Below, in pieces: positions 2,378 through 29,932 of a stretch of 64,000 nucleotides of DNA. The number at the start of each line of letters is the position of its first letter. Position 1 is the first letter of the stretch. Made by a program: the position numbers and the translations under genes. Source of the stretch: an uncultured Actinomycetota bacterium (GTDB taxonomy: Bacteria; Actinomycetota; Actinomycetes; Streptomycetales; Streptomycetaceae); assembly GCA_963756705.1 (NCBI GenBank), contig CAVWOS010000009.1, forward strand, positions 18,120 through 82,119. The letters are read 5' to 3'. The notes beneath the pieces are model-generated. The model was not told where the DNA came from and did no database searches. It saw only the letters and a list, made by a program, of their open reading frames with translations.

Positions 2378-2688
2378 CGGTCATGAAAGGCTCTGAATTC
2401 CCTTCGAGCGCACGGCACTCAAGCAATTCCCGGGAGGGATATAAAGCTCAATTGTCAAGTACACGACAGGAAATTGAATCGCAAGCCCCTGGAAATTCCG
2501 ACGACAGTCCGTTCCCATTCCGCCCGCCGGCCGCGCACACCCTCGGCGTGGAGTTAACTTGACATGCTCACAGCAATTACCGGTTCTGGTGGCTCTCTGG
2601 GCGGACCCGCCCGGCAAGCCGCTGTCCCCACCGGACCAAAGGCAGCACCAGACCCATCTTCGCCTCGCACCGGGCGGGACTTCTCTGA

Positions 2689-2756
2689 TTGACAAACCGG
2701 AGAGGTCCCCGAAGGCTGGGCGCAGCGTCAATGAACCACTGAGGAGAGTCGTGGAC
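2689..2756 (+). promoter_or_regulatory. rightward promoter/leader module (TTGACAAACC ... AACCACTGAGGAGAGTCGTGGAC)
   Basis: TTGACA at 2689; SD GAGGAGA at 2741; GTG at 2751. Confidence 0.55.
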
Positions 2757-3464
2757 ACCCTGCTCCCCCTGCTGCCCCCGTCGGACCAGCGCGTGGCCCT
2801 GGGCGGCTTGCGGGCCTGCGGAGACAAGCGCCGCGCCGCCTACCAGGCGGCCCAGGAAGTTCGCCGCGACGTCTCCAGGGCTATCGCCGTCGCCCTCGGC
2901 GCGGGCGCGGCGCCGGCTGACATCGTGCGCATCGCCACCGAGAGCTATTCCCCCGCCCGCGGCGTGCCGTGCTCGGTGCACACGCGGCAGAGCGTGTACA
3001 AGGTCATCAACTCCGCCGAGGACGCCGGGGGCACGCACGCGGCGGCCGGCAGGCCGGGTCCGGACGAAGCGCTCGACGCGCTGGGCCTGGCCGTGCGAAC
3101 GGCCCTCCCGGCGGTCCACGAACACGAGCTGCACCGCGATGTCCTGGCGCGGGTCATGTGGGAGTGCATCGACGCCGGACGCGGGCCGGCCGAGGTAGCC
3201 GGCGCCTGCGGCTTCGCGTCCGCGGCCGCCTACCGGTACCTCGGCCTGCGGGGACGCTGGAACCGCGTGTCCGCCACTCTGGACAAGCACGGGCTGCTCG
3301 CCGCTGATGAGGTGCTGGTCCGCAACTTCGGCACGGGCATCGTGCTCTGCAATGTCGCCCAGGAGCCGCGTGTCCAGCAGCGGCTGCGGGAGTGCCTGGC
3401 CGAGGCAGGCGAGCGGCTGGGCGCCGGCCGGTACGGCGACTGGGCGGCCGTGCACCCCCTTTGA
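2751..3464 (+). CDS. putative DNA-binding protein with two HTH-like segments
   Basis: GAAPADIVRIA..TRQSVYKVI and GRGPAEVAGACGFASAAAYRYL resemble HTH motifs; strong SD. Confidence 0.55.
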   Translation: MDTLLPLLPPSDQRVALGGLRACGDKRRAAYQAAQEVRRDVSRAIAVALGAGAAPADIVRIATESYSPARGVPCSVHTRQSVYKVINSAEDAGGTHAAAGRPGPDEALDALGLAVRTALPAVHEHELHRDVLARVMWECIDAGRGPAEVAGACGFASAAAYRYLGLRGRWNRVSATLDKHGLLAADEVLVRNFGTGIVLCNVAQEPRVQQRLRECLAEAGERLGAGRYGDWAAVHPL

Positions 3465-3765
3465 TGATGGGAAAGCCGCGTGACCGGACAGCACGCGCCG
3501 GGCAGCGCGGACGCCTACCTCGATCGCCGGCGGAACCTCCCCGCGCAGCCCCGCACGATCCCGGCCCCGCGGCGGCGAACCGCGTTCGGTGGAAGGCCCA
3601 GCGCGAGGCCGCCGTTTCCGCCCGGGCGAATCGCCGGCCTGACCGAGCGCAGCCCGCTGGGCGGCGCGGACGAGTACGCCAGCCCGCGGCAACCCGCGGC
3701 CGGGGGCGAGCGAGAGGCCACGCTTCGGCGCGGGCGCCGTGGCGGCGCGCGGTTGTGGCAGTCGT

Positions 3766-3910
3766 CGGTCATGACCGACGACGCCGCCATCGGTCATGAC
3801 CGATGACCGATGCCCTCCCTATCGGTCATGACCGATAGGGCCTGGGCCGTGACCGATCCGGCTTTCCGTGACCGGTCACGATGACCGGTCGGATGTCCGT
3901 CGGGTGACCG
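3766..3910. repeat. CGGTCATGACCG palindrome cluster and TGACCG(A/G) direct repeats
   Basis: 12-bp palindrome at 3766, 3791 and 3823; the third extends to the perfect 24-bp CCCTATCGGTCATGACCGATAGGG (3817-3840). Confidence 0.85.
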
Positions 3911-3959: not shown

Positions 3960-5839
3960 TCACGGCCGGGAGCGGCCGACCGAGCGGAGATGGGCGCGGC
4001 CTTGTTCGCGTTGCCGCTGCGCGAGGAGGTCTTTCGCCCGCCGCATGTCGCGCTGGCCGGTCGATGGGGACACCTCGTTGCGTCGGGCGGCCTCGGCGCC
4101 GGACAGCCTCTTCCCTGTTGCTTCGGCCTCGGCCAGCCACTGGACGATGCGCTCGATGCGCTGGTCCTCGGTCAGCTCGCTGACCGGTGTCTGGTCGATC
4201 CACTGCTCAGGGGCGCGGGCGGTGGCCTCCGCGGGGTCGGTCGCCGGCGCTTCCCGTCGCGTCCCGGCCGCCGCGTCGCCGGTACGGGCGGCAGGGATGC
4301 CCGGTGTGAGATCGGGGGCGGCGGGGCGCGGCGGCTGTGCGTCTGCGCCGGGCCGCTCAGCAGTGACCCGAGCAGGCGCCCCCGCGGGGTCGGGGTCCGG
4401 GGTGTGATGCATGGCCGGTGCCGTGACCGATGAGGTGATGACCGATTCCGTGACCGGTGCGGACGGTCGGTGGCCGGTGCGCGGTGGCCGGCCGGATCGG
4501 TCATGCCGCGGTCACTGGCATCCGTGACCGATTCCGTGACCGATTCCGTTGTCCACTCCCCCGGGTCCTGCGCGCGACGGCCGGGGTCGCGCACCGTCCC
4601 TGGCGCGACGGCCGCCGTGTCGGGCGCGGGGTGTGCTCCGCGTGCGGGGTGGGCGCGCTCGGTCTCCTCTGGGGGGCCTTCTCCCGCCGGGGTGGGCTGT
4701 GGCCGGAGTGCCTGGAACTGCTGGAGCTGGTGGCTGTTCGGGAAGGCGCTGTACTGCCCCGCGTAGTCGCGGTAGTCCTGGAACCGGGCCTCGCCATCGT
4801 CCCGGCCCGTGGAATCGGTGGCCGGCCGCGCGGAGCGGGCGGCGGCGTCGGGGTGGGTGTCGGGGTCGTGTTCCCGGGCCGGGTGTTCCAACGCCATGCC
4901 GGCGTCAGGGGCTGCGGCGCCGGCGTGTTCCAACCCGATCGGCTCCGTCGGCCTCTGTTCCAACGGCCCTCGTTCCAACGGCGCCGGTTCCAACGGTTCC
5001 GGTTCCAGCGTGGCGGGCGCCGGGCGGTGCGGAAGGGCCGGCCCTTGGATGCCCGCGGCCTCCAGGCCGGCTTCCGCGGTCTCGGTGAGCGGCACCCCGT
5101 AGCGGGCGAGCCGCAGCGGCATGATCGCCTCGATGGGGGCCTTGCGGCGCCACGCGACGCCGTACCGCGCGCGCAGCCTGGCCCGGTACACCAGCCGGTC
5201 CTGCTCGCGCCGGATGACCTCCTCGTACGACCGCAGCTCCCACAGCTTCATCCGGCGCCACAGCCTGAAGGTCGGCAGCGGGGCGAGCAGCCAGCGGGTG
5301 ATGCGGACGCCCTCCATGTGCTTGTCGGCCGTGATGTCGGCGATCCGGCCGATCGCGTGCCGGGCGGCCTCGACCGAGACCACGAAGAGCACGGGGATGA
5401 TCGCGTGCATGCCGACGCCGAGCTTGTCGGGCCAGGCCGCGGCGCCGTTGAAGGCGATCGTCGCGATGGTCAGCAGCCACGCCGTCTGCCGCAGCAGCGG
5501 GAACGGGATGCGCAGCCAGGTCAGCAGCAGGTCGAGCGCCAGCAGCACGACGATCCCCGCGTCGACGCCGATCGGGAAGACGTTGGCAAAAGCGCCGAAG
5601 CCCTTGTGCAGGGCGAGCGTGCGCACCGCCGCGTAGGAACCGGCGAAGCCGATCCCGGCGATCACCACCACGCCGGACACCACAACGCCCACCAAGATCC
5701 GGTGCGTGCGGGTCAAATGCATACCGCTGTGGGGAGGGTTCACTTGCCGGCCGGCTTCCCGCGATAGGCCGCCGGTGTGGAGAGCGGGGGCCGGCGGTTC
5801 CGGGTCCGCGGTGCGCGGCTCGGTGTCCGGCTCGACCAT
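3960..5839 (-). CDS. DUF2637-family (Spd-like) membrane protein with C-terminal HTH (frameshift near 4430)
   Basis: IAGIGFAGSYAAVRTLA..FPIGVDAGIVVLLALDL..RWLLAPLPTFRLWRRMKLWELRSY signature; C-terminal LSGAEAARRNEVSPSTGQRDMRRA HTH in ORF 3960..4412. Confidence 0.8.
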
Positions 5840-23151: not shown

Positions 23152-24090
23152 ATGCGAGAAACACAAGCACAGACCGTACAGGTATCGCCGCTTGGCGACG
23201 ACCTGGCGTTCCTCGACATCACCACCGAATGGGACCTTGAGACTCCGTACCACGACTGGCGGGTCTCGATCGTTGTCCCGGACACGTTCCGGCCCAACCC
23301 GCGCACGCCTCGTGTCATTGCCGTCGCGAATCAGAAGGGCGGGACGGGTAAGACGCTGACGGCGTTCGAGCTGGCCATGGCCCTGATCGCCCGGGGTCTG
23401 CGCGTGCGGCTGATCGACGCCGACCCGCAGTCGGCTGCCCTGACCGCATGGCTGATCGCGTGCTTCCCCGAGGGCAAGCGGCGGACGCTGACGGACGTGC
23501 TGATGGAGCGCTGCACGCTCGCCGACGCCACCTATCCGACTCCGTACGCCGGCCTTCACGTGGTCGTCTCCGCCCCCGACCTGGGCGAGGTAGAGAATTC
23601 CCACGAGAAGCCTCCGGGCGTTGAGTCCCTGCTCCAGTACCACCTGAGCGTCGACAAGGACTTCGACGTCACGGTCATCGACTCCGGCCCCAGCCTGGCG
23701 CTGCCCACGGTCGCCGCGTTGGTCGCCGCTCACGACGTGGTGGTCCCCGTCCAGGCCGCGAGCGGGCTGGACGTGAAGGGAGCAGCCTCCCTCCAACAGA
23801 CGATCAAGAGGGTGAGGGGACGCCTCAACCCCGAGCTGCGCGTCGCCGCCACATTCCTGACGGACTTCGACAGGTCGACCCTCGCCCGCACGATAGGAGC
23901 GAGGATGACCAAGGCATTCCCCGGGGCCCTGGTAGTTCCGGTCCGCCGCTCGGTGCGCGTCGGTGAAGCACAACTCGCCATGCAGCCGCTGCGGCTCTTC
24001 GCGCCCGGCACGTCGACCACCCTCGACTACGACCTGGCTGCGGCGCTGCTGACCGGCGGCACGGTCCCGGCACAGAGGACGGCGAGCTGA
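23152..24090 (+). CDS. parA: ParA-family partition ATPase
   Basis: NQKGGTGKT deviant Walker A, LIDADPQ, VIDSGP. Confidence 0.92.
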   Translation: MRETQAQTVQVSPLGDDLAFLDITTEWDLETPYHDWRVSIVVPDTFRPNPRTPRVIAVANQKGGTGKTLTAFELAMALIARGLRVRLIDADPQSAALTAWLIACFPEGKRRTLTDVLMERCTLADATYPTPYAGLHVVVSAPDLGEVENSHEKPPGVESLLQYHLSVDKDFDVTVIDSGPSLALPTVAALVAAHDVVVPVQAASGLDVKGAASLQQTIKRVRGRLNPELRVAATFLTDFDRSTLARTIGARMTKAFPGALVVPVRRSVRVGEAQLAMQPLRLFAPGTSTTLDYDLAAALLTGGTVPAQRTAS

Positions 24091-25301
24091 TGGCGGGATA
24101 CGACGCGAGTAGCGCCCTGGACGACATCTTCGAGAGCTTGGACGAACCCGAGCCGGCAGAAGGCTCGCCCGAGCCGGGAGGTCAGCAGGGGAGCGAGATG
24201 GACGCGGTCGCTGCGCGAACGGAATCCATCCTCGATGCCCGGCCGGCCGAGCCATTCGAGCTGGTCATGAACCTCGCCCGTGGTCTGCCCGATCTGGGCG
24301 ACGTCATGGCTGTGGCCGACGGCGACATGTCGGAGCTGACCGATATCGAGCGGAAGCAGAAGGGGCAGACTGAGAACATCATCCGGGCCGCTGTGGCAGC
24401 GGGGGAGGCGTCGATCTGGGTCGTCGCGGTGGGGCTTCAGGGTGTAGCCAAGGGCCGGTGGTGGCGCAGCACTCACTCCACGTACGAGCAGTATGTGAAG
24501 GATTTCACCGGACGCTCCGCCTCCTACGTCCGTCGGCTGCGGGCTGGTGCTCCCCTGGCCCTGGAGACGGCCGCCCGGACAGGCATCGTGCAGAATCCCG
24601 GCCAGAACCGGGAAGCGCGCAAGGCGGAGCAGCGGTACGGCCAGGACGCCGCCATCCTGCTCTTCCAGGTCGTCGCTGAGGTCACTCAGGAGCTGGGAGA
24701 CAGCGTCACCGCTGAGACGGTGGCCGCGGCGCGGGACGAACTCCCCACCGTGCTCTCCGAGGTTCCGGAGCAGAAGCGGGCCGAGATCGAGCAGGCGACC
24801 CGGCGGGCTCTCGGGCAAGACGTGCCAATTGGCACGCCGACGTTCGACCAAGAATCGAACAGGGGCGTGCCAATTGGCACGCCGACCGGAGAAGCGGGCC
24901 AGGCGCAGCGGCCAGCCACAGACACTGCTCGACCCGAGGACGACTCCGAGGACGACATCCTCGACGCCGAGATCGTGCCCGAGTCGATCGTCACTCTGAA
25001 GGACGCCGCCGCCGCACTCAATGCGCTGAACCGGGCCGTCAGCAAGGACACCTTCGTCCAGGCCGCGAAGGACGCAAACCCGACGGAGTACGCCGACCTC
25101 CGCGCCAAGATCCTGAGCCGGACCACCAGCCTCCAGAAGAAGGCGCTGCACGCTCCGGCCGTCTACGGGTCTGCTCCCGTATGTGAGACCTGCGAGAACG
25201 ACGCCGTGCCCAGCCCGGCGGAAGCCAAGCTCGGCAGGGTCGGCGCCTACTGGTGGTGCGCGACGTGCAAGACCACCCAGGGCGTCCGCGAGGCGCTGTA
25301 G
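24090..25301 (+). CDS. ParA partner, non-canonical centromere-binding candidate with HTH and C-terminal CxxC..CxxC
   Basis: coupled to parA (TGATG); WWRSTHSTYEQYVKDFTGRSASYVRRL HTH-like; CETC..WWCATC. Confidence 0.65.
   Translation: MAGYDASSALDDIFESLDEPEPAEGSPEPGGQQGSEMDAVAARTESILDARPAEPFELVMNLARGLPDLGDVMAVADGDMSELTDIERKQKGQTENIIRAAVAAGEASIWVVAVGLQGVAKGRWWRSTHSTYEQYVKDFTGRSASYVRRLRAGAPLALETAARTGIVQNPGQNREARKAEQRYGQDAAILLFQVVAEVTQELGDSVTAETVAAARDELPTVLSEVPEQKRAEIEQATRRALGQDVPIGTPTFDQESNRGVPIGTPTGEAGQAQRPATDTARPEDDSEDDILDAEIVPESIVTLKDAAAALNALNRAVSKDTFVQAAKDANPTEYADLRAKILSRTTSLQKKALHAPAVYGSAPVCETCENDAVPSPAEAKLGRVGAYWWCATCKTTQGVREAL
24821..24883. repeat. twin AATT-centred palindromes (parS candidate)
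   Basis: CGTGCCAATTGGCACG 24821-24836; GGCGTGCCAATTGGCACGCC 24864-24883. Confidence 0.85.
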
Positions 25302-26907: not shown

Positions 26908-27963
26908 TTAGGGGCGGTAGAGCGGCATTCCGGGCTCGCCGACGTTCACGTCCATCACGGCGGAGTCAGCCGCTACACCGGACAGGAATGCCTGGTTGGT
27001 AACCAGGGCGTGGGTGCCCCTGAACGCGACCGAGGCGGGGTTGTCCCAGGGGATCGAGCTGCCGGAGGACGTGACGCGGGTGAGCTCGCGCCCGCCGGGG
27101 GACAGGACCAGCAAAGCGTTGCCCAGGGCGAGCGGGACGTAGATGCGGCCGGACGCGCCGAGCGCGAATCCGTCCGGTGCCTCGCCGGGCTGGCCTTGCC
27201 AGATCGTGTGCAGTGCTCCGGGCCTGCCGCCCGCGCCGATGCCCATGGTGTAGATGCGGCCGTATCCGGTCGCCATCTGGCTGGGGTCGGTCACGCCGTA
27301 CAGGCACTGCCCGACCACCAACGTGGTCGGCCCGGCGAATTTGATGCCGCACGTGCCGAAAATGGATTCCAGTTGCGGATCGGTCTTCCACACGACCGGC
27401 GTCCCTCCACCGCGCGGAATACGCCAGATCAGGGCCTGGGAGATATCCGTGACCAGCAGGGACCCGTCCGGCGCGAAAGCCAAATCGTCGGCGTACGCCG
27501 GCAGGTCGGACTGGGTCGCGGAGCAGTTGCCGTCCGGACCCGCAGGGCCGCAGGGCGGCACATCCGCGAACGTCGCGTAGGTGCGCTGGGCTCCGGTGCG
27601 CGGGTCCACGGCGATCACCCGGGCCGGGTGCCGGTCCAGTGCGTACAGCACCCCGCGGGAGTCCTGAGCCATGTTGGTCAGGCCCTGCGGGGCATCCTGA
27701 CCTGTGATGGTGATGTCTTTGACGATCTTTCCGCTGCCGTTGTAGCCGAAGATGTGGCTCGGCCCGCCGGGGCCGCCGCCGGCGTCCTGGTGGGTGGCCA
27801 CGTAGGTCGTGCCGTCATCGGCCTCGACGATGCCGACCGGGTGGCCGGGGGTGGGCACGGTGGCGAACAGGCGACTGGACATGGTGGTGGCCTGGGCTGT
27901 TGTGGTGGTCAGGAAGAGCACTGCCGCGAGCGGGATGATCGCCAGCGCCCACAGGCGCCGCAT
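26908..27963 (-). CDS. secreted SMP-30/gluconolactonase-like beta-propeller protein
   Basis: signal peptide MRRLWALAIIPLAAVLF; DDLAFAPDGSLLVTD and PDGFALGASGRIYV blades. Confidence 0.75.
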   Translation of the reverse strand: MRRLWALAIIPLAAVLFLTTTTAQATTMSSRLFATVPTPGHPVGIVEADDGTTYVATHQDAGGGPGGPSHIFGYNGSGKIVKDITITGQDAPQGLTNMAQDSRGVLYALDRHPARVIAVDPRTGAQRTYATFADVPPCGPAGPDGNCSATQSDLPAYADDLAFAPDGSLLVTDISQALIWRIPRGGGTPVVWKTDPQLESIFGTCGIKFAGPTTLVVGQCLYGVTDPSQMATGYGRIYTMGIGAGGRPGALHTIWQGQPGEAPDGFALGASGRIYVPLALGNALLVLSPGGRELTRVTSSGSSIPWDNPASVAFRGTHALVTNQAFLSGVAADSAVMDVNVGEPGMPLYRP

Positions 27964-28107
27964 TCTGTGGCCGCGTCGGGATGGTGTTGGTGTAGGCATG
28001 AACTTCTCCGTCCGGGTCCGCTGTCAGCGCCATCTGGTGATCTGCGCTGCGGCGTGAGGCTAGGGACTACGGCCCGAAAATCGGCAGAGCCTGTGTATTA
28101 ACCACGT

Positions 28108-28162
28108 ACAGCAAATAGGGGCGCGGATACGGCGATTGCGTATCCGTGCCCCTATTTGCTGT
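28108..28162. repeat. 24-bp inverted repeat (1 mismatch) in a divergent intergenic region
   Basis: ACAGCAAATAGGGGCGCGGATACG-GCGATTG-CGTATCCGTGCCCCTATTTGCTGT. Confidence 0.9.
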
Positions 28163-28296
28163 GTCGGGTCAGTGTGCGGGCCGCTGGAATTTCCGGCCGG
28201 ACGTGCTCTGGTCGTATCCGTGCCGGCACACAAGGCTCGCCGGCGCCGTCGTGCACCCCCACGGCGACGACCCAACCTGGACACGAGGCCACCCAC

Positions 28297-29126
28297 ATGC
28301 CAGAGACCACCCTGCCTGCCGCCGAGGCTGCCGCGCTTGCTGAGCACGAGGCTGTCATCGACCGCGGCATCAAGACGTACTTCGAGGTCGGCGCCGCGCT
28401 GGCGGACATCCGTGACCGGCGCCTGTACCGGGCCAGCTACGCGACGTTCGAGCAGTACGCCGAACGGCGCTGGCAGATGAGCCGGGGCCGCGCCTACCAG
28501 ATGATCGAAGCGGCTGACGCGGTGTCTACAATTGTAGACACCGGAGCGCCTACACCGGCGAACGAGGGCCAGGCCCGGGAACTCTCGCGCGTCCCGGAGC
28601 CGGAACGCGCCGAGGTGTGGGCCGAGACGGTCGAGCGCACCGAGGGTCGGCCCACCGCGGCCGCCGTCCGTGACACCTACCAGCTGCGGCAGCAGCCGGA
28701 CGCCGACCCGCTCATGGATGCCGACCCGCCCTTGCGGATGTCGGCCCACTGGCGGATGTCGACCTGCCCGCGGACTCTGGCTGGGCGCCCCGGCCGGAGC
28801 CCGTGTCTGTGCCTGTGTCAGTGCCTGAGTCGAAGGTCAGGCGGCGCCCGCTGCCCGAGGTGTTCACCGACGCCGTCCGCGACCTCACGCGTGCCGCCGA
28901 GCGCCTGGAGCGCCTCACCGGCGATGACCGGTTCGCCAAGAACCGGGACGTCACGCAGGTTCCCGAGCTCATCGGCGCCCTGGAGCGCACCACGCACTTC
29001 GTCGAGGCCCTCGATCTCCCCGACGCCGAGGCGAGCGAGGAGGCCCGCCGCTGGTGGGCGACGGGCCTGCTCTCGATCAGCGACGCCCTCGCCGATGTCG
29101 CCCGCACCATCGAAGAGGAGCGGTAA
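28297..29126 (+). CDS. phage/plasmid HTH DNA-binding protein (frameshift near 28740-28800)
   Basis: EVGAALADIRDRRLYRASYATFEQYAERRWQMSRGRAYQMIEAA; related to the HTH segment of 24090..25301. Confidence 0.7.
28521..28542. repeat. perfect 22-bp intragenic palindrome
   Basis: GGTGTCTACAATTGTAGACACC, encodes VSTIVDT. Confidence 0.9.
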
Positions 29127-29932
29127 TGCCGACTCGTAAGGCGCTCGACATCGAGATCGTCACGGTCACCCCTGACCTCGCCACGGAGTGGCTCGCCCGC
29201 AACGGGCACAACCGGCCGCTGCGCCAGCGCGCTGTCACCGACTACGCCCGCGACATGGATTCCGGGCACTGGCTCCAGAACGGCGAGGCGATCAAATTTG
29301 CCTCCGACGGCACCCTCCTGGACGGACAGCACCGCCTCCACGCCGTCGTCATGTCCGGTGCCGATGTCGTGATGCTCGTGGTCCGCGGGCTGCCCATGTC
29401 CACGCAGGAAACGATGGACGCAGGTCGCAGGCGCACCACGGCCGACGCCTTCGGGCTGCGCGGTGAGGTCAACGCCACGGTCCTTGCGGCCGTCGCCAGA
29501 CGGGTCTGGATGTGGGAGCAGGGCGACTACAAGTTCGTCGCCAACTACACGCCCACCATGGCGGAATGCTCCGACCTCCTCAGGAGGCGACCGGAGATCT
29601 ACCGGTCGGTGGAGGTCGCTGTCCGCACTCACCAGGCGTTCCGGTACGTCCCGCGGTCCATCACCGGCACCTGCCATCACCTGTTCTCCCGCATCTCCGC
29701 TACGGACGCGCAGTGGTTTTTCGCCCGGCTTGCCGACGGCGCCGATCTCCCTGCCGGCCACCCCGTCCTGACCCTGCGGAACCGGGCCACGACCGAGCGG
29801 ACCGAACACCGCCACGTACCGGACCACCGGTTCACCGCCTACCTCATCCGGGCCTGGAACGCCGTCCGCGAGGACCGCACCCTCCACAAGATCATCCAGG
29901 CCCCCGACGCACCCATGCCCATGCCCAGGTGA
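29126..29932 (+). CDS. DGQHR/ParB-N-like domain protein
   Basis: NRPLRQRAV..YARDM..W..NGEAIKF..LLDGQHRLHAVV; TAATG coupling to the upstream gene. Confidence 0.8.
   Translation: MPTRKALDIEIVTVTPDLATEWLARNGHNRPLRQRAVTDYARDMDSGHWLQNGEAIKFASDGTLLDGQHRLHAVVMSGADVVMLVVRGLPMSTQETMDAGRRRTTADAFGLRGEVNATVLAAVARRVWMWEQGDYKFVANYTPTMAECSDLLRRRPEIYRSVEVAVRTHQAFRYVPRSITGTCHHLFSRISATDAQWFFARLADGADLPAGHPVLTLRNRATTERTEHRHVPDHRFTAYLIRAWNAVREDRTLHKIIQAPDAPMPMPR

What the first reader, a model, noticed from the sequence alone, without database searches (positions are those of the whole stretch)
28297..29126. Second HTH paralog with its own perfect AATT-centred intragenic palindrome
Seen: a related HTH (YATFEQYAERRWQMSRGRAY vs HSTYEQYVKDFTGRSASY) followed immediately by a perfect 22-bp palindrome GGTGTCTACAATTGTAGACACC (VSTIVDT). 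The two paralogs thus each contain a different CAATTG-core palindrome. Inference: a protein family that encodes its cognate binding site in-frame, so site and reader travel together as a self-addressing module.
Basis: partly seen in the sequence, partly recalled or inferred. Interest (0 to 1): 0.62.

Follow-up and report, generated by a model that had tools for sequence, protein, structure and literature searches.

The report
ParT-like protein carrying its own parS
The palindrome is real and is almost certainly the docking site of the DNA-binding protein whose gene contains it, an arrangement shown experimentally in 2025 for the related plasmid-segregation protein ParT; here it turns out to be a family-wide trait with a readable protein-to-DNA code.

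Summary
Observation confirmed. A perfect 24-bp palindrome (28520-28543) is unique in the 9-Mb genome. It is spelled with four rare codons and overlaps the end of the HTH recognition helix and the loop after it.

The gene belongs to the ParT family (SCP2 ParT: BLASTP E=3e-14, hhalign 98.9%). ParT is a ParB-like protein without a CTPase domain. Sukhoverkov et al. (PNAS 2025) showed it loads at one 18-bp parS, TGTCTCCAATTGGAGACA, inside its own coding sequence. The window's site differs by one base per half-site.

New here, and absent from that paper's held text:
- About 64 homologs from Actinomycetota, Cyanobacteriota and Bacteroidota plasmids keep a palindrome at this spot: arm >=9 in 32/64, against 2/1691 control windows.
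- It is single-copy in all four replicons checked.
- Half-site sequence tracks helix-3 residues, not helix 2. The residue after the conserved Tyr predicts base 4: R-C 21/22, Q-A 17/22, E-G 12/12.

The upstream "paralog" is the ParA-coupled ParT of this element. The gene in the finding has no ParA and is coupled to a ParB/Srx-fold protein.

The parts
28297..28745 (+). N-terminal part of a ParT-family gene: long helix alpha2 (aa 8-40), HTH (helix 2 aa 51-59, recognition helix aa 63-77), the NEGQAREL motif and three further helices. The reading frame is that of 28297. The end of the homologous stretch is approximate.
   Evidence: Translation. There are 145 homologs. AF2 model has pLDDT 84. BLASTP to SCP2 ParT gives E=3e-14; hhalign gives 98.9%.
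28483..28527 (+). Codons of the predicted recognition helix (R63-S77, RGRAYQMIEAADAVS). Q68, after the conserved Y67, is the residue that tracks base 4 of the half-site.
   Evidence: AF2 secondary structure. Position-specific covariation.
28520..28543 (.). parS-like site: perfect 24-bp palindrome CGGTGTCTACAATTGTAGACACCG. The 18-bp core TGTCTACAATTGTAGACA differs from SCP2 parS TGTCTCCAATTGGAGACA at one position per half-site.
   Evidence: The SCP2 parS oligo is in SI Table S5 of PMC12260392.
28720..28790 (+). Low-complexity linker that holds the frame change. Relative to the closest intact relative (L087) the window has +38 nt and +18 nt insertions and a 3-nt deletion. The DADP / LADV repeats look like short tandem duplications.
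   Evidence: Three-frame translations. DNA alignment with L087 and L088.
28803..29126 (+). Conserved C-terminal domain (RRPLPEVFTD...EEARRWWATGL) of the same protein family, in a different frame from the N-terminal part. By analogy with ParT it is presumed to be the dimerisation domain.
   Evidence: tblastn finds it directly after the N-domain in L004, L005, L007, L008, L024, L025, L035 and L061.
29126..29932 (+). Translationally coupled partner gene (TAATG overlap) with a DGQHR motif and a ParB/Srx-like fold plus a helical domain.
   Evidence: PHROG 5931, E=4.8e-69. AF2 pLDDT 85. Best PDB fold hits are Noc, ParB-N/CDP and sulfiredoxin, with weak E of 0.03-0.3 but probability up to 0.96. It is syntenic in 7 loci plus L087 and L088.
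23152..24090 (+). ParA (Walker-type partition ATPase) of the element.
   Evidence: Pfam AAA_31 at 5.9e-34, plus CbiA and MipZ.
24090..25301 (+). ParA-coupled ParT homolog (the first 'paralog'). Its recognition helix is SASYVRRLRAG.
   Evidence: BLASTP to SCP2 ParT gives E=2e-8. Orthologs follow ParA on Streptomyces and Kitasatospora plasmids.
24821..24883 (.). Two copies of CGTGCCAATTGGCACG (24821-24836 and 24866-24881; the second extends to 20 bp, 24864-24883). They lie in the linker between the DNA-binding and C-terminal parts of that gene, and each encodes VPIGTP.
   Evidence: The same 16-mer follows the helix in distant family members L058 and L059, whose helices share Y-x-R-R-L.

Best explanation
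The gene at 28297-29126 encodes a ParT-family protein. ParT proteins are ParB-like: a long N-terminal helix, an HTH DNA-binding domain, a flexible linker and a C-terminal domain, with no ParB/Srx CTPase domain. The 24-bp palindrome inside the gene is this protein's own parS-type site. A dimer reads the two half-sites with the recognition helix that is encoded just upstream of the site, the first half-site beginning within its last three codons. Q68 most likely contacts the A at position 4 from the dyad, where SCP2 ParT has Arg and a C (a G on the other strand). The site lies in codons for a poorly ordered loop, so the DNA sequence is free to evolve under its own constraint. Protein and site are inherited as one unit and give each replicon a single private address. 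The element therefore holds two orthogonal ParT/parS pairs. One is the ParA-coupled pair at 23152-25301, which is the partition system. The other is this ParA-less pair, which is coupled to a ParB/Srx-fold protein and probably marks or regulates DNA rather than segregating it. Shown here: the palindrome, the homology to ParT, the family-wide conservation, the covariation and the synteny. Shown by others: ParT binds and spreads from its intragenic parS. Inferred: that this protein binds this site, that it slides, and the role of the partner. In this assembly the gene is frameshifted, so the module may be inactive in this strain.
For: (1) Homology to SCP2 ParT covers alpha2, the HTH, the site-coded peptide and NEGQAREL. 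ParT's experimentally mapped parS, TGTCTCCAATTGGAGACA, sits at the same codons, VSPIGDI. (2) Of 64 non-redundant homolog site windows, 32 have a perfect palindrome with arms >=9, against 2 of 1691 control windows from the same loci. Palindromes are also present in Nostoc, Oscillatoria, Tolypothrix, Stanieria, Chroococcidiopsis, Emticicia and Spirosoma plasmids. (3) Selection acts on the DNA. Rare codons are used. The closest relative has compensatory synonymous changes, TCT>TCC with GTA>GTG, that keep a perfect 22-mer. L042 and L044 carry the palindrome in another reading frame. (4) Half-site distance correlates with helix-3 distance (Mantel r=0.49, P<=2e-4; partial r=0.47). It does not correlate with helix 2 (r=0.04) or the N-terminal helix (r=0.16). 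Mutual information peaks at helix positions i, i+1, i+2, i+4, i+5 and more weakly i+8, largely one helical face. (5) The code is R-C 21/22, Q-A 17/22 and E-G 12/12. This matches the usual Arg-G, Gln-A and Glu-C contacts (established knowledge). On a tree built from flanking helices, residue and base change together: 27 joint changes against a mean of 43.8 and a minimum of 36 in 2000 shuffles. (6) The site is single-copy on every replicon checked, as in SCP2. (7) The site-coded residues fall in the lowest-confidence loop of the model.
Against: No binding data exist for this protein or site. The protein has no ParA neighbour and no disordered basic N-terminal peptide, so ParT's partition role does not transfer directly. 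My Foldseek search of the 140-aa model found no ParB-like structure in the PDB, so the ParB-likeness of the fold rests on the published superposition. Helix and site are only about 10-40 bp apart, so joint inheritance or recombination as a block contributes to the covariation. The 42-aa tree used as a control is noisy.
Confidence: 0.78

Rival explanations
1. Dead module: the frameshift is real, the protein is truncated or garbled after about residue 146, and the palindrome is a recent relic with no present function in this strain.
For: Frame change in the linker. The island is described there as reshuffled.
Against: The palindrome is still perfect over 24 bp. The downstream frame is still open and conserved up to its normal stop. 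The change lies near a C-run and short tandem repeats, where assembly errors are common. The N-terminal 146 residues, which include the DNA-binding domain, are intact in any case.
Confidence: 0.3
2. The site is only a classical operator. The protein binds inside its own gene as a transcriptional roadblock (negative autoregulation) and neither slides nor recruits anything.
For: There is one site, 224 bp downstream of the start codon. The protein has no ParA. KorB-type ParB relatives act as repressors (cited in PMC12260392).
Against: The long alpha2 helix, which in ParT forms the N-gate needed for spreading, is conserved here. The conserved coupling to a ParB/Srx-fold gene suggests more than autorepression.
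Confidence: 0.2
3. The palindrome is read by another protein rather than by the HTH encoded around it, for example the ParB/Srx-fold partner, a methyltransferase or a host factor.
For: Some family members are fused to DNA methylases or DUF5131. The centres CAATTG and CCATGG are also restriction-enzyme words.
Against: Arm sequence tracks residues of the adjacent recognition helix position by position. ParT alone binds its site in vitro. Palindromes occur in members with quite different partners.
Confidence: 0.07
4. The palindrome acts as an RNA or single-stranded DNA hairpin, for example in attenuation, mRNA stability or a single-strand origin.
For: Compensatory changes keep the arms complementary, as they would for a stem.
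Against: Complementarity usually runs through the centre (AATT, CATG, ACGT), including wobble positions, which a hairpin loop does not need. The arms co-vary with protein residues. The homologous site is bound as duplex DNA by ParT.
Confidence: 0.03

Closest known systems
ParA-ParT-parS of Streptomyces coelicolor plasmid SCP2 (Sukhoverkov et al., PNAS 2025, PMC12260392)
   Same: It is a homologous protein (E=3e-14). It has the same layout of alpha2, HTH, site-coded loop and NEGQAREL. It has a single inverted repeat inside the protein's own coding sequence at the same codons. The 18-bp core is identical at 16 of 18 positions.
   Different: The window protein has no adjacent ParA and no long disordered N-terminal ParA-activating peptide. 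Its C-terminal domain is different. It is coupled to a ParB/Srx-fold gene. It has Q instead of R after the conserved Tyr, and A instead of C at half-site position 4. It is frameshifted here. The ParA-coupled gene at 24090-25301 is the closer functional analogue of ParT.
SpdA2-sps of Streptomyces plasmid pIJ101 (Thoma et al., Front Microbiol 2014, PMC4170104)
   Same: A small plasmid DNA-binding protein binds a palindrome (CGTCACGTGACG, 2-3 copies) that lies in its own coding region, downstream of the DNA-binding domain. EMSA was done, a synonymous knock-out of the site was made, and the phenotype is reduced segregational stability.
   Different: The DNA-binding domain is a CxxC...CRQRAY zinc-ribbon-like motif, not this HTH. 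I ran no alignment against it. Its 12-bp site is nearly invariant among plasmids, whereas the site here diversifies together with the protein.
Canonical ParB-parS (for example the parS inside B. subtilis spo0J; Caulobacter ParB, PDB 6T1F)
   Same: An HTH protein dimer binds a 16-bp palindrome and then spreads. Some parS sites lie inside parB (own knowledge: Lin and Grossman 1998).
   Different: ParB has an N-terminal ParB/Srx CTPase domain that closes the clamp. This protein has none. A ParB/Srx-fold protein is encoded separately downstream.
KorB-OB of IncP plasmid RK2
   Same: It is a ParB-family DNA clamp used for regulation rather than, or besides, partition. It is a possible model for the ParA-less members.
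   Different: KorB is CTP-dependent, has many OB sites per plasmid, and its sites are not embedded next to the recognition-helix codons.

Membership tests
ParT family (SCP2.04c-like, CTPase-less ParB-like proteins) | Sequence homology to SCP2 ParT over the DNA-binding (M) domain | tested here: met
   BLASTP gives E=3e-14, 45% identity over 77 aa. hhalign of ParT against the family alignment A1 gives 98.9% probability, E=1.4e-17.
ParT family (SCP2.04c-like, CTPase-less ParB-like proteins) | No ParB/Srx CTPase domain in front of the HTH; instead a long, confidently predicted helix alpha2 | tested here: met
   There are no Pfam, NCBIfam or PHROG domain hits. AF2 shows H8-40 directly before the HTH, with block pLDDT of 83-96.
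ParT family (SCP2.04c-like, CTPase-less ParB-like proteins) | Single roughly 18-bp inverted repeat (parS) inside the protein's own coding sequence | tested here: met
   The site is at 28520-28543 and is unique in the genome. It sits at the codons equivalent to the parS of SCP2.
ParT family (SCP2.04c-like, CTPase-less ParB-like proteins) | Adjacent parA and a disordered basic N-terminal peptide that activates ParA | tested here: not met
   The upstream neighbour is a divergent SGL-family gene and the downstream one a ParB/Srx-fold gene. The protein starts 7 residues before alpha2. The paper also lists ParA-less ParT-like homologs. The adjacent-parA half is met by the other gene, 24090-25301, which directly follows ParA; its N-terminal peptide was not examined.
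ParT family (SCP2.04c-like, CTPase-less ParB-like proteins) | C-terminal constitutive dimerisation domain joined by a flexible linker | tested here: inconclusive
   A conserved C-terminal domain of about 100 aa exists after a variable linker. It is unrelated in sequence to that of ParT, it is out of frame here, and dimerisation was not modelled.
ParT family (SCP2.04c-like, CTPase-less ParB-like proteins) | Specific binding to parS and NTP-independent diffusion on DNA | not testable with these tools
   Only comparative support is available: helix-site covariation.
Canonical type-I ParB (ParB/Srx CTPase + HTH + C-terminal dimer) | N-terminal ParB/Srx CTP-binding domain (GERRxRA box) in the same polypeptide | tested here: not met
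   No such domain is present. A ParB/Srx-like fold is found only in the separate downstream protein, or fused C-terminally in relatives P0049 and P0091.
SpdA/SpdA2 of Streptomyces plasmids | Conserved N-terminal roughly 50-aa SpdA DNA-binding region and the 12-bp sps CGTCACGTGACG | tested here: not met
   The pIJ101 SpdA2 ORF recovered has a CxxC...CRQRAY motif and sps sites. The window protein has neither. It is an analogue, not a member.
   P0004 has no Pfam hit at E<=0.1. None of 46 family members matched it at E<=0.01. A remote relationship is not excluded.

The most novel reading that the evidence does not exclude
ParT-family proteins and their intragenic parS form an evolvable, orthogonal addressing system with a simple readable code. 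The residue after the conserved Tyr of the recognition helix (Arg, Gln or Glu) sets base 4 of the half-site (C, A or G), and further helix positions set bases 5-9. Because reader and site are only about 10-40 bp apart, new specificities arise and move as one unit. This lets several ParT modules coexist on one replicon, as the two do here. In addition, the ParA-less branch together with its obligate ParB/Srx-fold partner (separate or fused) would be a 'split ParB' that uses the self-encoded site for a job other than partition, such as silencing, or marking or protecting the element.
Probability: 0.35. Interest if true: 0.75.

Novelty: new variant of a known kind. Interest (0 to 1): 0.55.

Why it matters
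ParT was described in 2025 from a single plasmid, and the held text of that paper and its supplement says nothing about parS in the homologs. This work adds three things.

- The intragenic parS is a defining trait of the family, conserved across three phyla. That gives a predicted binding site for each of the roughly 50 sampled homologs that carry a palindrome.
- It yields a concrete, falsifiable specificity rule (R/Q/E to C/A/G). The rule could be tested by single-residue swaps and used to design orthogonal DNA-anchoring or plasmid-labelling pairs.
- It identifies a recurrent ParA-less subtype with a ParB/Srx-fold partner, a lead to the "functions beyond segregation" that the paper only surmised.

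For annotation, two "hypothetical proteins" of this conjugative element receive a function.

Tried and rejected
- Profile libraries. Pfam, PHROGs, NCBIfam and PADLOC gave no family for the HTH protein. The only hit was a sub-threshold match to Borrelia PF49 (E=0.03), which I did not rely on.
- PDB searches. A sequence search with the family profile gave only a spurious Syf1 hit. Foldseek of the 140-aa model against the PDB gave nothing with E<3, so I could not reproduce the ParB superposition myself.
- Nucleotide and phage searches. Megablast of the 9-kb neighbourhood against plasmids found nothing useful. tblastn against 50,697 phage records found no homolog, so a phage origin for this gene is not supported.
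- SpdA2 as a homolog. It is rejected on inspection: its DNA-binding motif is different. No alignment was run.
- RNA hairpin. It is rejected because the dyad runs through the centre and the arms track protein residues.
- Restriction or methylation target. It is rejected because the arms vary widely while staying symmetric.
- Multi-copy centromere. It is rejected because each site is single-copy on its replicon.
- Programmed frameshift. It was considered and rejected. Homologs are single ORFs, and the shift lies in an indel-rich linker with no slippery heptamer.
Accession NC_003904 for SCP2 was not in the collection. SCP2 was found instead through the published parS oligo.

Full report
**1. What is in the sequence**

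It extends to a perfect 24-bp palindrome, CGGTGTCTACAATTGTAGACACCG, at 28520-28543 (I19). It ties with one other site for the longest perfect palindrome in the 64-kb window. Its 20-bp core occurs nowhere else in the 9.04-Mb genome, even with three mismatches.

The surrounding coding sequence has 71% G+C, whereas the central 12 bases of the palindrome have 33%. The palindrome is written with TCT, ACA, ATT and GTA. Each of these makes up only 4-6% of its synonymous family in 24 genes of this window. Their joint probability given the peptide S-T-I-V is 3.9e-6. This is not chance, and it is not a by-product of the peptide.

**2. The gene**

From the ATG at 28297 the frame encodes a helical protein. 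An AlphaFold2 model built on 22 homologs has pLDDT 84. It shows a long helix (aa 8-40), then helices 51-59 and 63-77 (the HTH), a low-confidence loop (aa 78-89), and three more helices. The palindrome covers codons A75 to G83. That is the last turn of the recognition helix plus the loop after it.

Homologs are single proteins of 253-272 aa. Their C-terminal domain (RRPLPEAF...EEARRWWA) is encoded in this window in a different frame, up to 29126. Against the closest intact relative (L087, 89% identical protein) the window has linker indels of +38, +18 and -3 nt. So 28297-29126 is not one open frame here.

The shift lies in a repetitive, indel-prone linker next to a C-run.

**3. Family-wide conservation of the palindrome**

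I collected DNA for homologs from four sources:
- genomes;
- the same genus;
- metagenomes;
- annotated plasmids.

I then located the codons equivalent to the recognition helix in each. Most homologs, down to about 30% identity, carry a palindrome of 14-34 bp between the recognition helix and the NE(G/R)QAR(E/A)L motif. The centre is nearly always AATT or CATG.

Examples:
- GTGTCTGCCATGGCAGACAC
- GTGGGCGCAATTGCGCCCAC
- TTTGACGCCAATTGGCGTCAAA
- TGTCTCCCATGGGAGACA
- AAAATGTCCACAA-T-TTGTGGACATTTT (Nostoc pCC7120alpha)
- TTTGTCGGAAATTTCCGACAAA (Emticicia and Spirosoma plasmids)
- GTGCGCCATGGCGCAC (Oscillatoria)

Of 64 non-redundant site windows, 32 contain a perfect palindrome with arms >=9. Only 2 of 1691 control windows from the same loci do.

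Three observations show that selection acts on the DNA:
- L087 reads GGTGTCCACAATTGTGGACACC. Two synonymous changes (TCT>TCC and GTA>GTG) compensate each other and keep a perfect 22-mer.
- L042 and L044 carry TGTGAACAATTGTTCACA in a different reading frame, VNNCSQ.
- The encoded peptides (STIVD, SAMAD, SGMPD, GAIAP, SPIGD, VPIGT) obey codon-pair complementarity rather than any protein pattern.

One subclade, with helix EEWPLAERL, lacks a palindrome at this position.

**4.

For 52 sequences with a site, half-site distance correlates with recognition-helix distance (Mantel r=0.49, P<=2e-4). It does not correlate with helix 2, only 12 codons upstream (r=0.04, P=0.31), and correlates only weakly with the N-terminal helix (r=0.16, P=0.05). 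The partial correlation, controlling for those two flanks, is 0.47.

Mutual information is concentrated at helix positions R63, G64, R65, Y67, Q68 and, more weakly, E71. This is largely one face of the helix. It is absent at A66, M69 and I70.

With 64 sequences, including ParT, the residue after the conserved Tyr predicts base 4 from the dyad centre:

| Residue after Tyr | Base 4 | Count |
|---|---|---|
| Arg | C | 21/22 |
| Gln | A | 17/22 |
| Glu | G | 12/12 |

This agrees with the textbook contacts Arg-G, Gln-A and Glu-C on one or the other strand (established knowledge).

I built a tree from the flanking helices only. On it, the residue class changes 26 times and the base 22 times, but the joint label changes only 27 times. 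In 2000 label shuffles the joint count had a mean of 43.8 and a minimum of 36. In 22 of 28 nearest pairs that differ in residue class, both members follow the code.

There are two caveats. The 42-aa tree is noisy. Helix and site are only about 10-40 bp apart, so block inheritance contributes to the signal.

**5. What it is: a ParT-family protein with its parS**

A literature search led to Sukhoverkov et al., PNAS 2025 (PMC12260392). SCP2.04c, named ParT, is a ParB-like protein without a CTPase domain. It has a flexible N-terminal peptide, a long helix alpha2, an HTH M domain, a linker and a C-terminal dimerisation domain.

ChIP-seq and BLI showed that ParT loads at a single 18-bp inverted repeat inside the parT coding sequence. 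It spreads over about 5 kb without NTP and activates ParA. The oligonucleotide in their Table S5 gives the site as TGTCTCCAATTGGAGACA, encoding VSPIGDI followed by NEGQ.

I fetched SCP2 through that oligo. The comparisons were:
- ParT against the window protein: BLASTP E=3e-14, 45% identity over 77 aa;
- ParT against my family alignment: hhalign 98.9%, E=1.4e-17;
- ParT against the upstream "paralog" P0002: E=2e-8.

ParT's helix, KRAHAYRMIEGW, with TGTCTCC fits the rule I had derived before finding the paper. The window's core, TGTCTACAATTGTAGACA, differs from the SCP2 parS only at position 4 of each half-site, and Q68 replaces ParT's Arg.

The taxonomic spread the paper reports for ParT-like proteins (Actinomycetota and Cyanobacteriota) matches my tblastn result. 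That search hit 100 plasmid records (Nostoc 36, Streptomyces 16, and others) and no phage record.

The held main text and supplement of the paper do not mention parS in homologs or any specificity analysis.

**6. Two modules on one element**

The gene at 24090-25301 directly follows ParA. Its orthologs also follow ParA on Streptomyces and Kitasatospora plasmids. It is the ParA-ParT partition pair of this conjugative element.

Its sites (CGTGCCAATTGGCACG, twice) lie further downstream, in the linker before the C-terminal part. Orthologs have a different CAATTG-centred palindrome at the same place, or directly after the helix in Kitasatospora. Two distant family members (L058, L059) with the same 16-mer share the helix motif Y-x-R-R-L with P0002.

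ParA is also directly upstream of family members in Emticicia, Spirosoma (rep-parA-parT order), S. cellulosae and pS1D4-14.2.

The gene in this finding is different. It has no ParA and no N-terminal tail. It has a distinct C-terminal domain and a translationally coupled downstream gene (29126-29932). That arrangement is conserved in at least nine loci.

The downstream partner protein has a DGQHR motif. Its AF2 model (pLDDT 85) best matches Noc, ParB-N/CDP and sulfiredoxin. The E-values are weak (0.03-0.3), but the set of hits is coherent.

Relatives fuse the same HTH module to a ParB/Srx domain, to DUF5131 or to DNA methyltransferases. The HTH-plus-site unit therefore behaves as a portable DNA-anchoring module.

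In all four replicons checked, the site is single-copy.

**7. Mechanism proposed**

A dimer of the protein reads the two half-sites of the palindrome in its own gene with helix 3. By analogy with ParT, it may then close over the DNA and diffuse. It may carry or recruit its ParB/Srx-fold partner. The purpose would not be ParA-driven partition; regulation, silencing or marking of the element are the candidates.

The status of each step is:
- The palindrome, the homology, the conservation and the covariation are shown here.
- Binding and spreading are shown only for SCP2 ParT.
- Everything about the partner and the biological role is inference.

Placing the site in codons for a disordered loop lets the DNA evolve freely and keeps reader and site linked. 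This explains how two non-cross-reacting pairs can sit 4 kb apart on one element.

**8. Precedents and novelty**

Besides ParT, SpdA2 of pIJ101 binds a 12-bp palindrome inside its own gene. This was shown by EMSA, and a synonymous site knock-out reduced stability (PMC4170104). Its DNA-binding motif is different, so it is an independent analogue.

Earlier notes of this scan report similar intragenic sites in other ParA-partner families. I treat those as leads only.

This locus is a new, ParA-less variant of a known kind. What I found no report of is the family-wide rule and the residue-to-base code.

**9. Verdict**

Novelty is "new variant of a known kind" and interest is moderate (0.55). The decisive experiments are cross-EMSA, single-residue specificity swaps and resequencing of the linker.

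Noticed in passing
window 3761-3840: Three perfect palindromes share the core CGGTCATGACCG: GTCGTCGGTCATGACCGACGAC, CATCGGTCATGACCGATG and CCCTATCGGTCATGACCGATAGGG. They lie within 80 bp, in the gap between the genes at 2559-3464 (+) and 4172-5839 (-). This looks like an operator array of the transfer region.
   Followed up: no
window 28108-28162: An inverted repeat with 24-nt arms (96% complementary, 7-nt loop) lies in the divergent intergenic region just upstream of the ParT-like gene. It is unique in the genome. It could be an operator, or a transcription stop for a neighbouring unit.
   Followed up: partly
window 28720-28790: The linker of the ParT-like gene contains short tandem duplications (DADPLM/DADPPL and LADVGP/LADVDL) and a frame change. 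There are thus two broken frames within 6 kb, caused either by decay of the island or by assembly errors.
   Followed up: partly
window 28501-28528, minus strand: The only sigma-70-like promoter match in 27950-29200 uses TAGACA of the palindrome as its -35 element (TAGACA-16-GATCAT, 9 of 12 matches). It would fire antisense to the gene. This is a consensus match only.
   Followed up: no
L073 (Emticicia plasmid pEMTOL01) and L081 (Spirosoma oryzicola plasmid): ParA-coupled family members from two different Cytophagales genera share an identical recognition helix (KRQRAYELMGAAE) and an identical 22-bp palindrome (TTTGTCGGAAATTTCCGACAAA), although the spacing between helix and site differs.
   Followed up: partly
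L084 (Chroococcidiopsis plasmid pA), about 2660-2730: A cyanobacterial member has the 'actinobacterial' pairing RAHAYRL with TGTCTCC, and a duplicated peptide LSPNGRQMEEMSPNGRH that suggests two adjacent sites.
   Followed up: no
proteins P0076, P0083, P0084, P0087, P0096, P0097 and members of alignment A2: The same N-terminal HTH-plus-site module is fused to DUF5131 (PF07505, a radical-SAM-like phage Gp37/Gp68 family) and, in single metagenomic members, to Dam or N6_N4 DNA methyltransferases. This suggests site-directed delivery of DNA-modifying enzymes.
   Followed up: no
L004 4816-5643: In Streptomyces sp. LUP30 the ortholog of the ParB/Srx-fold partner gene has an in-frame stop after 38 codons of the aligned part. 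It may be a pseudogene.
   Followed up: no
L016-L018, L021-L023 (same genus as the window): A subclade of longer proteins (443-598 aa; helix ...AYQMIEEWPLAERL) has no palindrome after the recognition helix. Either its site is elsewhere or it has lost self-addressing.
   Followed up: no
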